Assembly (NCBI GenBank): GCA_963753975.1
Contig: CAVWEH010000002.1
Location: 96,001 to 160,000, forward strand
Source: an uncultured delta proteobacterium
Lineage (GTDB): Bacteria; Desulfobacterota; Syntrophia; Syntrophales; Smithellaceae
Reading direction: 5' to 3'
Length of the DNA stretch: 64,000 nucleotides
Below are positions 58,991 through 64,000 of this stretch, piece after piece (position 1 is the first letter of the stretch; every line of letters starts with the position of its first letter). The notes below the pieces were generated by a model, which saw only the letters and a program-made list of their open reading frames with translations, did no database searches and was not told where the DNA came from. The translations under genes and the position numbers were made by a program.

Positions 58991-59122
58991 TTAATGCTCG
59001 CTAATTTGAGAGGCCTCTTGATCTTCCCTGTCAATCCCCAATTTTTCAATCCGTTCGATTTCGTTTAGCTTCATTGTAGAAATTAAGCAGTCCTGATAAT
59101 AAGCGAATAAACGCAAAATCAT
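58991..59122 (-). pseudogene. Fragment paralogous to the C-terminus of the CcmD-like gene at 62011-62265
   Basis: MKLNEIERIEKLGIDRED versus MKLNEIERIQKLGIDKED (16/18). Confidence 0.7.
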
Positions 59123-62010: not shown

Positions 62011-62265
62011 TCAATTCAGCAGAGGGGCATGTGTATCTTCTTTATCAATCCCCAATTTCTGAATTCTTTCAATTTCATTGAGTTTCATTTTGATAACCAC
62101 AATAAGTCCGATAATGGCGAGCCAGAAAATAGCCAGGCTCGCGTAGACTGTGTAAGCGTCAACCGGTGTAGTAGGAAATACGGGGATTTTATCTTCGGCC
62201 CGGGCCATGAAACTGAAAAAAAAGATAGTGAATGCAGAAAATAATATCTTAATAAAATATTTCAT
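62011..62265 (-). CDS. Small membrane protein, CcmD-like, with signal peptide
   Basis: Signal peptide, one TM (YASLAIFWLAIIGLIVVI), charged tail; 8 bp after cytochrome b. Confidence 0.65.
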   Translation of the reverse strand: MKYFIKILFSAFTIFFFSFMARAEDKIPVFPTTPVDAYTVYASLAIFWLAIIGLIVVIKMKLNEIERIQKLGIDKEDTHAPLLN

Positions 62266-62273
62266 AAGCGCAC

Positions 62274-63338
62274 CTAACTTAAAAAGCCGACCAGAGTCAT
62301 AGTTATAAAATAAAGAAGGTAGATCACAGCAATGACTGTGAAGATTGGGCTTTTCTCTCCTCTGTTTGATTTGCGGTCGATAAATGGAATGAGGAAGAAA
62401 AATAATATTCCGACCGAGACGCAGATAATAGCAATGGTCTCGCCATTGAAACCCCAAATGGTGCCGGGAAAGAGTTTGAGTGTTTCCAACATAAAGAGAA
62501 AATACCATTCGGGTTTGATGCCTTCCGGCGGCGCAGCCAGAGGATTTGCTTTCTTACCGATTTCCGGCGGCAGGAGAATTGCCAGCGTTACCACAATGCC
62601 CAGCACCACCAGCCAGATCATCATATCCTTGTAAAAAACATTGGGGAAGAAGGGTTCTCCTTTGTTTTCTTTCTTTTCCAGAGAAACGGGAATGCTCATG
62701 CCGTGATATTGCACAAAAAGCAGATGCAGGCCGATGAGCAACAGTGAAAATACCGGCAGAATGGCCACGTGGAAGGCGTAGAAGCGGGTGAGGGTATCGC
62801 CGGTTACATCTGTGCCTCCCCTTAAGAAAATTTTTATAAAACTCCCGAGGAACGGCAAAGCGCCCGCGCCTCCTGTAGCAACACGCACCGCGGCAAAAGC
62901 CCGTTCATCCCAGAGCATTAGATAGCCGCTGAGGCCAAAGAAAATGGAGATTACCAGCAGAATAAAACCGGTCACCCAGAGAAACTCCCGCGGCTTGCGG
63001 TAAGATTTAACGAGCAGTGTGCCAAAGAGATGAATAAAGACAAAAACAATACAGAGCTGTGCTCCCCAGTGATGAACAGCCCGGAAAAACCAGCCCATAT
63101 TGATTTTCGTGACGATATCGATGATGCTTTCATAAGCGAAGTCGATATGCGGAATATAATAAAAAGCCAAGAGCATTCCCGTTATAAATTGCAGAATAAA
63201 AAGGAAAAGCGTAATGCCTCCGGTATAATACAGGAAGTCATAACGATGTTGAGGGACAAGCTTGCTTTTGGCAAGTTTCTTCAACTCGGCAATATCATAG
63301 CGCTCCTCAATCCAATTTTTAAACTTTGGCCAGATCAA
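62274..63338 (-). CDS. Cytochrome b of a Rieske/cytb complex (b6 and subunit IV in one chain)
   Basis: GW..R..H.W, four heme His, PRE..W..G, GY...WD, PFFP, KPEWY. Confidence 0.95.
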   Translation of the reverse strand: MIWPKFKNWIEERYDIAELKKLAKSKLVPQHRYDFLYYTGGITLFLFILQFITGMLLAFYYIPHIDFAYESIIDIVTKINMGWFFRAVHHWGAQLCIVFVFIHLFGTLLVKSYRKPREFLWVTGFILLVISIFFGLSGYLMLWDERAFAAVRVATGGAGALPFLGSFIKIFLRGGTDVTGDTLTRFYAFHVAILPVFSLLLIGLHLLFVQYHGMSIPVSLEKKENKGEPFFPNVFYKDMMIWLVVLGIVVTLAILLPPEIGKKANPLAAPPEGIKPEWYFLFMLETLKLFPGTIWGFNGETIAIICVSVGILFFFLIPFIDRKSNRGEKSPIFTVIAVIYLLYFITMTLVGFLS

Positions 63339-63789
63339 CTTTAGCTCCCTTCCTGACTATAATCAGTTTTTCGCCTTTTTCCATTACTTCAAAAACCTGA
63401 AGCGGTTTGGGCGGTGGACCGGCAATGTTTTTGCCTGTGTCGTCAAACCAGCCCTGATGGCAGGCGCAGTAAAACTTCTTTTCCGCCGGCCGATAAGCCA
63501 CGTTGCATTCCATATGCGTGCAGACGCCTTTAAAAGCGGCAGTGCTTCCGTCTTCTCTTTTTAAAAAGATTCCCGGCACTCCACCCCAGGCAAATATTTT
63601 CGCTGAATTTTCGGGAATAGCGTCAAGATCTTTTTTGGCGAGCACTACAAAATCCGGCTCCTTGCCGAGGGTAGGGAAGGCAAATTTAAACAAGGGAAAA
63701 AGCGTAGCGGAAAAAAAAGCCACAAGCGAGCCGCCGAAAAGAGTATTGAGAAATTGTCTGCGTGTAATGAGGGAATATTTCAATTTCAT
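63319..63789 (-). CDS. Rieske 2Fe-2S protein
   Basis: TRRQFL Tat anchor, CTHMEC, CACH, GPPPKPL. Confidence 0.95.
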   Translation of the reverse strand: MKLKYSLITRRQFLNTLFGGSLVAFFSATLFPLFKFAFPTLGKEPDFVVLAKKDLDAIPENSAKIFAWGGVPGIFLKREDGSTAAFKGVCTHMECNVAYRPAEKKFYCACHQGWFDDTGKNIAGPPPKPLQVFEVMEKGEKLIIVRKGAKVDLAKV

Positions 63790-64000
63790 TTTTTTGCTTC
63801 CCTCCGTTCTTTTTTGAATTTATTTTTCAACAGTGTCTTGCGCAAGCCCACAATGCCGTCGGTAGGACGCACATCCTTCGGGCAGGCATCAATACAGCGA
63901 AATACAGTATCGCAACCCCAGACGCCTTTTTCATTATTGAAGATCTCCAGCGCCTGGGCCGATCTTTCATCACGGGAATCGGATGAAAAACGCTGTAATT
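63786..64000 (-). CDS. C-terminus of succinate dehydrogenase/fumarate reductase Fe-S subunit (5' end outside window)
   Basis: Manual translation: LQRFSSDSRDERSAQALEIFNNEKGVWGCDTVFRCIDACPKDVRPTDGIVGLRK...*; DSRD and CxxxxxCxxxCP motifs. Confidence 0.88.
   Translation of the reverse strand, partial: LQRFSSDSRDERSAQALEIFNNEKGVWGCDTVFRCIDACPKDVRPTDGIVGLRKTLLKNKFKKERREAKK

What the first reader, a model, noticed from the sequence alone, without database searches (positions are those of the whole stretch)
62011..64000. SdhB/FrdB translationally coupled to Rieske, cytochrome b and CcmD-like genes: candidate complex II/III hybrid module
Seen: the last 215 bp, absent from the ORF track, encode an SdhB/FrdB-type C-terminus (DSRD, GVWGCDTVFRCIDACPK). 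Its TGA overlaps the Rieske ATG (ATGA at 63789-63786). The Rieske gene overlaps cytochrome b, a small membrane gene follows after 8 bp, and no cytochrome c gene lies downstream. Known: Sdh/Frd normally use SdhC/D, FrdC or SdhE/F anchors, and Rieske/cytb complexes normally reduce a cytochrome c. Inference: the Rieske/cytb pair may be the quinone-reactive partner of the flavoprotein/Fe-S dimer, possibly for reverse electron transport or O2 handling in an anaerobe. Only the 3' end of the operon is visible.
Basis: partly seen in the sequence, partly recalled or inferred. Interest (0 to 1): 0.8.

Follow-up and report, generated by a model that had tools for sequence, protein, structure and literature searches.

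The report
Complex II wired to Rieske/cytochrome b
Many anaerobic, mostly syntrophic bacteria carry one tightly packed gene set that joins succinate dehydrogenase to a Rieske/cytochrome b module with no cytochrome c, likely forming one membrane machine that would push electrons from succinate uphill to a low-potential quinone.

Summary
The window (a Smithellaceae genome) ends inside a six-gene cassette: one three-helix SdhC/D-type anchor, sdhA, sdhB, Rieske, cytochrome b, small membrane protein. The gene order holds in 23 of 23 related genome loci (18 reach the anchor) and 32 of 32 metagenome loci long enough; a second Desulfobacterota clade has it inside TCA operons, and SdhB-Rieske fusion proteins are widespread. 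Corrections: an anchor gene is present upstream, and the small gene is not CcmD (CcmE in 0 of 36 genomes). It likely is the haem-less stub of the nine-haem cytochrome c found at that position beside the nearest Sdh-free cytochromes b. The anchor has Lys where the distal haem His sits, and one genus lost the Qi site while keeping Qo under purifying selection. Best reading: one complex doing proton-motive-force-driven reverse electron transfer from succinate to (methyl)menaquinone. Against: binding untested, the same anchor occurs without Rieske in 4 genomes, 31 of 36 genomes make cytochromes c. No description found in my paper searches; two key reviews were not read. This scan reported the same system before on other DNA.

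The parts
63786..64000 (-). 3' end of sdhB (iron-sulfur subunit). The cassette continues past the window end: sdhB starts at G000:C2:160530 (TTG overlapping the sdhA stop; 1-bp frameshift near codon 38 in this assembly), sdhA (567 aa, active site intact) is at C2:160527-162230 and the single 101-aa three-helix SdhC/D-type anchor (His58 kept, Lys21 at the distal haem His position, invariant His42) at C2:162233-162538
   Evidence: TIGR00384, NF004616, TIGR01812 over cut-off; frame open here in the relatives except L039, which has its own break
63319..63789 (-). Rieske iron-sulfur protein, 156 aa, twin-arginine membrane anchor (RRQFL), Gly and Phe at the two potential-setting positions, so predicted low potential
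   Evidence: rule from PMC3509893 and PMC12954380 passages
62274..63338 (-). unsplit cytochrome b, 354 aa, predicted 7 membrane helices, four haem His (89, 103, 190, 205), Qo motif PEWY, Qi-site Lys-Asp, no haem ci Cys
62011..62265 (-). 84-aa protein: signal peptide, short periplasmic part, one membrane helix, charged tail; likely the haem-less stub of a nine-haem cytochrome c
   Evidence: (dN/dS 0.12-0.14)

Best explanation
This is the 3' end of a conserved six-gene cassette encoding succinate dehydrogenase with a single three-helix anchor beside a Rieske/cytochrome b module whose cytochrome c is likely reduced to a haem-less stub; the products likely form one membrane complex that would use the proton-motive force to move electrons from succinate uphill to a low-potential (methyl)menaquinone. 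Shown by sequence: gene set, coupling, conservation, motifs, fusions. Inferred: the anchor works as a homodimer; succinate electrons cross the membrane at the expense of the membrane potential and reduce quinone at the Qo site of cytochrome b, one electron arriving through the Rieske cluster (fed from the anchor's periplasmic end, in place of a cytochrome c) and one through haems bH and bL. Where Qi is intact (55 of 58 sequences keep the Asp) bH could be fed by quinol, a reverse Q-cycle moving 4 charges per 2 electrons; in the genus that lost Qi, bH would have to be fed by complex II directly (2 charges).
For: Cassette intact in 23 of 23 genome loci and 32 of 32 long-enough metagenome loci, in 16 of 17 close hits of a 401-genome phylum sample with the 17th (G208) keeping all six genes in two places, and in a second clade of 7 genomes, mostly among TCA genes. 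SdhB-helix-Rieske fusions in 7 sampled genomes and 120 of 120 listed homologues; 3 of the 7 have a true Sdh active site. The nearest Sdh-free cytochromes b sit with a nine-haem cytochrome c whose membrane tail matches the small protein (hhalign score 27.0, probability 74%; 0 of 100 column shuffles and 0 of 100 tail-only shuffles reach it; five unrelated comparisons score 10-13); no full-length homologue of that cytochrome was found with this query in 36 cassette genomes. Anchor has Lys at the His47 position of M. smegmatis SdhC, a distal haem ligand, in 58 of 58 sequences, and Trp4 and Phe/Leu70 where the proximal quinone site residues lie (E. coli roles recalled). Genus g32: 4 of 4 genomes lost Qi-lining residues yet keep PEWY, four His and Rieske, cytb dN/dS 0.11-0.17. 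Context supplies succinate: sucCD and acyl-CoA oxidation genes upstream in Smithellaceae, fumarase-like, malate dehydrogenase-like and sucCD genes in the second clade (the first two labelled by eye). G000 has menA-like, menG-like and a PRK08629 radical-SAM gene (MenK identity recalled). With methylmenaquinone at -156 mV a 2-charge enzyme needs 186 mV and a 4-charge one 93 mV (succinate +30 mV recalled).
Against: No expression or biochemical data. The same Lys21/His42/His58 single anchor occurs with sdhAB and no adjacent Rieske/cytb in 4 genomes (L229-L232), so this complex II can likely work without the module and the Lys is not an adaptation to it. 31 of 36 cassette genomes encode cytochrome c maturation, 20 of 36 match a class I cytochrome c family, and G000 has several multihaem cytochromes, so an acceptor encoded elsewhere is possible. 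How electrons reach the periplasmic Rieske head without a His-ligated distal haem is unexplained. The fused forms do carry a cytochrome c and fall in a different cytochrome b clade, and 4 of 7 lack the FAD His and catalytic Thr, so they are analogies, not proof for this cassette. The stub homology is moderate: alone it ranks 26 of 18715 ORFs, E 16. A 4-charge step is costly for a syntroph. Many Smithellaceae lack the cassette (15 of 36 family members matched cytb). sdhB is frameshifted in this assembly.
Confidence: 0.5

Rival explanations
1. Co-transcribed but conventional pair: the homodimer-anchored Sdh reduces menaquinone at its own distal site, and the Rieske/cytb complex re-oxidises the quinol by a forward Q-cycle, handing electrons to a cytochrome c encoded elsewhere (for example the decahaem-porin or other multihaem systems of this genome). 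Net: a succinate:cytochrome c reductase for an external acceptor.
For: Same anchor without Rieske in 4 genomes; cytochrome c maturation in 31 of 36; DmsE/MtrB-type pair and other c-type cytochromes in G000; Qo and, in 55 of 58, the Qi Asp kept; a low-potential Rieske is normal for menaquinol oxidation (established); fused types keep a cytochrome c.
Against: The cognate cytochrome c appears deleted down to its anchor; 5 of 36 genomes (87-97% complete) show no ResB, no CcsB over cut-off and no CcmE; a forward Q-cycle needs Qi, which genus g32 lost under continued purifying selection; Rieske stayed with sdhB, not cytb, when the operon split in G208.
Confidence: 0.25
2. Quinol:fumarate reductase using Qo-site bifurcation: (methyl)menaquinol is oxidised at Qo, the bL-bH electron passes to complex II and fumarate, and the Rieske electron goes to the anchor or to a periplasmic acceptor, generating proton-motive force.
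For: Hosts are anaerobes; complex II is reversible; Qi loss in g32 fits bH discharging into complex II; it parallels the proposal for anammox Rieske/cytb complexes, where the b haems feed a cytoplasmic flavoprotein (PMC12954380 passages).
Against: SdhA has the Gln that the M. smegmatis paper links to succinate oxidation (not absolute); a Rieske cluster predicted near +100 to +200 mV lies above fumarate and its electron would have to climb against the membrane potential; gene context is succinate-producing (sucCD with acyl-CoA oxidation genes).
Confidence: 0.15
3. Two independent modules kept together by co-regulation only, with no electron transfer between them beyond the shared quinone pool and no common purpose.
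For: Operon split in G208; ORFs inserted before the small gene in G421; ATGA overlaps are common.
Against: Order kept across several families and two clades with different flanks; fusions in other lineages.
Confidence: 0.07
4. Oxygen defence: succinate electrons are passed through Rieske/cytb to an O2- or superoxide-removing system.
For: Superoxide reductase gene next to the cassette in the window; bd oxidase in G000.
Against: Superoxide reductase adjacent in 3 of 23 related loci; bd oxidase takes quinol directly (established); no haem-copper oxidase found in G000, 95% complete.
Confidence: 0.03

Closest known systems
Class A dihaem succinate:menaquinone oxidoreductase (M. smegmatis Sdh2, PDB 6LUM; PMC7447783, passages read)
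   Same: Best structural and profile match of the anchor; SdhA Gln, three Fe-S motifs, proximal haem His; pmf-driven succinate oxidation by menaquinone is the proposed function there; also has a tiny single-helix extra subunit
   Different: One anchor gene instead of SdhC plus SdhD; Lys at the distal haem His; linked Rieske/cytb module
Class F complex II (M. smegmatis Sdh1, PDB 7D6V; as described in PMC10238741, passages read)
   Same: Complex II associated with a Rieske-type cluster
   Different: There the cluster is inside a six-helix anchor; here a separate twin-arginine Rieske protein pairs with a cytochrome b that has a Qo site
Anammox Rieske/cytb complexes Kuste4569-74 and Kustd1480-85 (PMC12954380, passages read)
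   Same: Rieske/cytb encoded with a cytoplasmic flavoprotein/Fe-S module proposed to exchange electrons with the b haems
   Different: NAD(P) oxidoreductase rather than SdhAB; they keep multihaem cytochromes c and high-potential Rieske clusters (+303, +335 mV)
Haloarchaeal Rieske/cytb-Nar cluster (PMC3509893, passages read)
   Same: Low-potential Gly/Phe Rieske, no cytochrome c gene, module dedicated to one redox enzyme
   Different: Partner is a nitrate reductase reached through a periplasmic cytochrome b, running forward; here the partner is cytoplasmic complex II
ETF:methylmenaquinone oxidoreductase (EMO) reverse redox loop of Syntrophus aciditrophicus (PMC8805022 and bioRxiv 10.64898/2026.08.18.745454, passages read)
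   Same: Solves the same kind of problem in a related syntroph: pmf-driven uphill reduction of methylmenaquinone
   Different: Unrelated proteins; ETF donor; no Rieske or Q-cycle
Mitochondrial supercomplexes containing complex II (reviewed in PMC10238741, passages read)
   Same: Complex II next to complex III
   Different: There the association is loose and rare, linked by ubiquinone, with cytochrome c1; here it is fixed in one operon or one polypeptide

Membership tests
Complex II superfamily | SdhA with FAD-binding His and dicarboxylate active-site residues | tested here: met
   FAD His loop, QF/YHPT, T/S-E, APRD, HYSMGG, NRLGGNSL in all 21 split-type rows; TIGR01812 over cut-off
Complex II superfamily | SdhB with 2Fe-2S, 4Fe-4S and 3Fe-4S cysteine motifs | tested here: met
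   frameshifted near the N-terminus in G000 but not at that spot in five relatives shown
Class A dihaem SQR | two different anchor subunits (SdhC and SdhD) | tested here: not met
   one PF01127 match in G000, 95% complete; one anchor in 18 of 18 loci that reach it
Class A dihaem SQR | helix I His for the distal haem | tested here: not met
   Lys21 in 58 of 58, aligned to SdhC His47
Class A dihaem SQR | helix II His for the proximal haem | tested here: met
   His58 in 58 of 58, aligned to SdhC His87
Class C SQR (E. coli, mitochondria) | proximal quinone-site Ser (SdhC) and Tyr (SdhD) | tested here: not met
   Trp4 58 of 58; position 70 Phe/Leu/Met/Val, never Tyr; E. coli residue roles recalled
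Class F complex II | Rieske cluster inside a six-helix anchor | tested here: not met
   anchor has three helices and no Cys/His Rieske motif
Class E complex II | SdhE (CCG domain) and SdhF anchors | tested here: not met
   no such gene in the cassette
Rieske/cytb complex | membrane-anchored Rieske protein with both cluster boxes | tested here: met
   (57 of 58 rows with both boxes)
Rieske/cytb complex | four haem His and Qo motif | tested here: met
   His 58 of 58; PEWY 54, PDWF 4
Rieske/cytb complex | Qi site | tested here: inconclusive
   Lys-Asp aligned to mitochondrial cytb, Asp in 55 of 58; the mitochondrial Qi His is Gln here; site appears lost in 4 of 4 g32 genomes; sequence inference only
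Rieske/cytb complex | cytochrome c (c1, f or multihaem) acceptor subunit | tested here: not met
   none in the cassette; likely stub only
b6f-type / green clade | haem ci Cys and split cytochrome b | tested here: not met
   Tyr38 aligns to b6 Cys35; unsplit
CcmD (system I cytochrome c maturation) | co-occurrence with CcmE and match to the family | tested here: not met
   CcmE 0 of 36 genomes; no Pfam hit
Joint II-Rieske/cytb complex | physical association of the two halves | not testable with these tools

The most novel reading that the evidence does not exclude
A new class of complex II: a homodimer-anchored succinate dehydrogenase hard-wired to a cytochrome-c-less Rieske/cytochrome b complex that runs a reverse Q-cycle (4 charges per 2 electrons), or feeds haem bH directly, letting syntrophs oxidise succinate against a highly reduced methylmenaquinone pool; the cytochrome c was trimmed to a structural stub when complex II took over as the Rieske partner, and SdhB-Rieske fusions show the same wiring arising again.
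Probability: 0.35. Interest if true: 0.9.

Novelty: new variant of a known kind. Interest (0 to 1): 0.72.

Why it matters
Succinate oxidation is one of the hardest uphill steps in methanogenic food chains, and the known solution (a dihaem anchor, 2 charges) falls short if the quinone is methylmenaquinone near -156 mV. A complex II fused in function to a Rieske/cytb module would be a second solution, would add an architecture outside classes A-F, would give a living example of a one-gene (homodimeric) anchor, and would show a Rieske/cytb complex working without cytochrome c and, in one genus, without a Qi site. Six small genes make it testable by heterologous expression, native gels and redox titration.

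Tried and rejected
Complex prediction (SdhB + 2 anchors + cytochrome b + haems) was not available, so binding is untested. Sequencing-run search: no RNA holder listed, best DNA share 0.17; no reads were laid, so the sdhB frameshift was not checked against reads. ESM Atlas look-up of the small protein gave no answer. Promoter/terminator scan gave counts at shuffle level (8 vs 7.8; 9 vs 7.5). Longer homologues of the small protein: 3 hits, two with repeat-lengthened signal peptides and one degenerate cytb-small fusion lacking PEWY, none with a haem domain. Idea that cytochrome b completes a 'half anchor': weakened by the four Rieske-free relatives. Idea that cassette genomes lack cytochromes c altogether: rejected (31 of 36). 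Idea that all fusions are succinate dehydrogenases: rejected (4 of 7 lack FAD His and Thr). Known menaquinone head-group pathways not found in G000 (MqnA/D family none, menD below cut-off, mqnC none). No solved structure matched both domains of the fusion (46 hits, each one domain). Foldseek of the anchor gave no E under 0.001; top rows were 6LUM and 1NEK anchors. Trees are quick trees without a clade test; one search left out cytochrome b hits aligned over 240 residues or fewer (such as L183), one search left out 9 split-type rows and the cut L239. Paper searches listed nothing describing this cassette (listings and abstract starts seen; passages read for PMC10238741, PMC12329440, PMC5946492, PMC5606693, none of which mention it). 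Dibrova et al. 2013 and Agne et al. 2021 were not held, and Karavaeva and Sousa 2023 was seen only as a reference; these and their supplements could bear on novelty.
Full report
Observation. The last 215 bases of the window encode the C-terminus of an SdhB-type protein on the minus strand; its stop overlaps the Rieske start (ATGA), Rieske overlaps cytochrome b, and an 84-aa membrane gene follows after 8 bp. The window is G000:C2:96001-160000; the titles of the closest related records name Smithellaceae/Syntrophaceae, and more distant ones Syntrophorhabdaceae. Reading on past the window gives, on the same strand with short gaps: 3-hydroxyacyl-CoA dehydrogenase, thiolase, a glutaryl-CoA dehydrogenase-like gene, sucC, sucD, a carboxyltransferase, acyl-CoA dehydrogenase, enoyl-CoA hydratase, then one 101-aa SdhC/D-type anchor (C2:162233-162538), sdhA (C2:160527-162230), sdhB, Rieske, cytochrome b and the small gene. 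It is the only close sdhA, anchor, Rieske and cytochrome b of this kind found in the genome (95% complete). sdhB has a 1-bp frameshift in this assembly; sucD, fumarase and resB are also broken in G000, so assembly error is the likely cause, not checked with reads.

Conservation. All 23 genome loci found with the cytochrome b hold sdhA (whole or cut by a contig end), sdhB, Rieske, cytb and the small gene in order, and 18 of 18 that reach far enough hold one anchor. Of 80 metagenome loci found with the anchor, 32 have at least 4.7 kb downstream and all 32 hold the other five genes; no shorter locus lacked a gene where there was room. In a 401-genome phylum sample, 17 genomes had close cytb hits (E under 1e-139); 16 have the cassette and G208 has it in two places, anchor-sdhA-sdhB-Rieske and cytb-small. 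A second clade of 7 genomes has the same order, mostly among fumarase-like, malate dehydrogenase-like and sucCD genes (three are cut by contig ends). These sets overlap in part and are related, so they are not independent counts. The cassette is patchy in the family: 15 of 36 members matched the cytb at all. Related anchors carry names from Ca. Aminicenantes and Phycisphaerae; their context was not checked here. All six genes are under purifying selection (dN/dS 0.04-0.17).

Fusions. Seven sampled genomes join SdhB, a twin-arginine helix and a Rieske domain in one ORF, followed by cytochrome b fused to a monohaem cytochrome c, with one anchor gene nearby in six. All 120 listed homologues have both domains and 113 have RRxF in the linker. 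Three of the seven have a normal Sdh active site; four lack the FAD His and have Glu for the catalytic Thr, so likely act on another substrate. Their anchors keep the distal His. In quick trees the fused cytochromes b fall in a different supported group from the split ones, which suggests separate recruitments; no clade test was run.

Anatomy. SdhA has the FAD His, the Gln linked to succinate oxidation and the catalytic motifs. The anchor folds as three helices with a short bridging helix ending at His42 (model of the 95% identical L027 protein). Aligned to M. smegmatis SdhC, His58 matches the proximal ligand His87, Lys21 matches the distal ligand His47, and His42 lies in the bridging helix that lines a distal quinone pocket in SdhD of that enzyme; all three are invariant in 58 of 58 sequences. 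The proximal quinone-site Ser and Tyr of E. coli (roles recalled) are Trp and Phe/Leu. The Rieske protein has Gly at the Ser position in 57 of 57 and Phe at the Tyr position in 49 of 57, predicting a potential under +200 mV (PMC3509893; PMC12954380 notes exceptions). Cytochrome b has seven predicted membrane helices, four His, PEWY, the Qi Lys-Asp and no haem ci Cys.

Two findings narrow the mechanism. First, the small protein is not CcmD (CcmE in 0 of 36 cassette genomes). The four nearest Sdh-free cytochromes b sit with nine-haem cytochromes c, directly downstream in three and upstream of Rieske in one; these end in a membrane helix and a Lys-hydrophobic-Arg tail that matches the small protein (hhalign 27.0, probability 74%; 0 of 100 column shuffles and 0 of 100 tail-only shuffles as high; other cytochrome tails and other membrane proteins 10-13). 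On its own the tail profile ranks the small gene only 26th of 18715 ORFs, so this is likely, not proven. It reads as signal peptide plus anchor with the haem domain deleted. Second, in genus g32 (4 of 4 genomes) cytochrome b has lost the N-terminal Qi-lining stretch and the Qi Asp but keeps PEWY, the four His, Rieske and the cassette, with dN/dS 0.11-0.17 among the three tested. A normal Q-cycle cannot turn over without Qi (established), so bH there likely exchanges electrons with something else, most simply the co-encoded complex II.

Against my reading. The same Lys/His/His single anchor sits with sdhAB and no adjacent Rieske/cytb in four genomes, so the anchor is likely a self-sufficient homodimer, perhaps with an unusual distal haem or quinone site, and the Lys is likely older than the link. 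31 of 36 cassette genomes have ResB and CcsB over cut-off, 20 of 36 match a class I cytochrome c family, and G000 has a decahaem-porin pair; 5 of 36 show none of the maturation genes but are 87-97% complete. No RNA evidence or biochemistry was obtained.

Mechanism. Succinate (+30 mV, recalled) cannot reduce methylmenaquinone (-156 mV) at standard ratios across a 2-charge wire unless the proton-motive force reaches 186 mV; with 4 charges 93 mV suffices. G000 has menA-like, menG-like and PRK08629-family genes but no recognised head-group pathway; that PRK08629 is the methylase MenK is recalled, so the quinone is uncertain. I commit to one complex running succinate to quinone in reverse through the Qo site (0.5), ahead of a conventional II plus III pair with a cytochrome c from elsewhere (0.25), a bifurcating fumarate reductase (0.15), mere co-regulation (0.07) and O2 defence (0.03).

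Known systems and novelty. It works like a class A dihaem SQR joined to a dedicated Rieske/cytb module, as in anammox or haloarchaeal Nar clusters, but fails the defining anchor tests of classes A, C, E and F and lacks the cytochrome c of Rieske/cytb complexes. Eight paper searches listed no description; for nine papers I read passages found by term, none in full; three relevant papers were not held or seen only as a reference. This scan reported the same cassette on other DNA three times and the fusion once (AI notes, three of the four marked as partly fallen on later check); the stub homology, the Qi-less genus and the Rieske-free sister anchors were not in the lines I saw. Class: new variant of a known kind; interest 0.72.

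Noticed in passing
window 59008-59086, minus strand: A decayed second copy of the 3' end of the small gene (76% identity over 68 bp) lies 3 kb downstream, suggesting the intervening block (response regulator, DUF1499, small membrane gene, superoxide reductase) came in with a short duplication.
   Followed up: partly
L027, L028, L031, L032, L036-L040, L047 just after cytochrome b: The signal peptide of the small protein has taken up insertions of repeated short elements (translating as SFPRKRESR- and VIANPLKRMKQS-like blocks), growing from 84 to about 200 aa, mostly with the frame open; they look like palindromic REP-type repeats (recalled).
   Followed up: no
L229-L232 (G447, G299, G181, G148): Complex II with a single Lys/His/His three-helix anchor gene and no Rieske/cytb nearby: a possible homodimer-anchored class on its own.
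   Followed up: partly
L181, L197, L200, L201: SdhB-Rieske fusions whose flavoprotein lacks the FAD His and has Glu for the catalytic Thr; two lie just upstream of dsrAB-like genes (labelled by eye).
   Followed up: partly
L202:5050-5457, L203:5339-5746: An extra stand-alone copy of the SdhB 2Fe-2S domain (136 aa) between sdhA and the SdhB-Rieske fusion.
   Followed up: no
G000:C1:292274-293191, C5:133506-135138, C5:597176-598471: menA-like, menG-like and PRK08629 genes without menD, mqnC or MqnA/D matches; menD and mqnC also not over cut-off in G011 and G029: these Smithellaceae may scavenge the naphthoate precursor.
   Followed up: partly
L157-L168, L192, L193 downstream of the small gene: A roughly 630-aa ORF follows the cassette in most family f25 loci; the one copy scanned had no Pfam match.
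   Followed up: no
G000:C5:653000-664400 (L220): Cluster of multihaem cytochromes: 7- and 10-haem ORFs beside NrfD/NrfC-like genes (labelled by eye), and a DmsE-type decahaem with an MtrB-type porin.
   Followed up: no
L196:7075-9618 (G181): An 848-aa ORF fusing cytochrome b, two CxxCH motifs and a Rieske domain.
   Followed up: no
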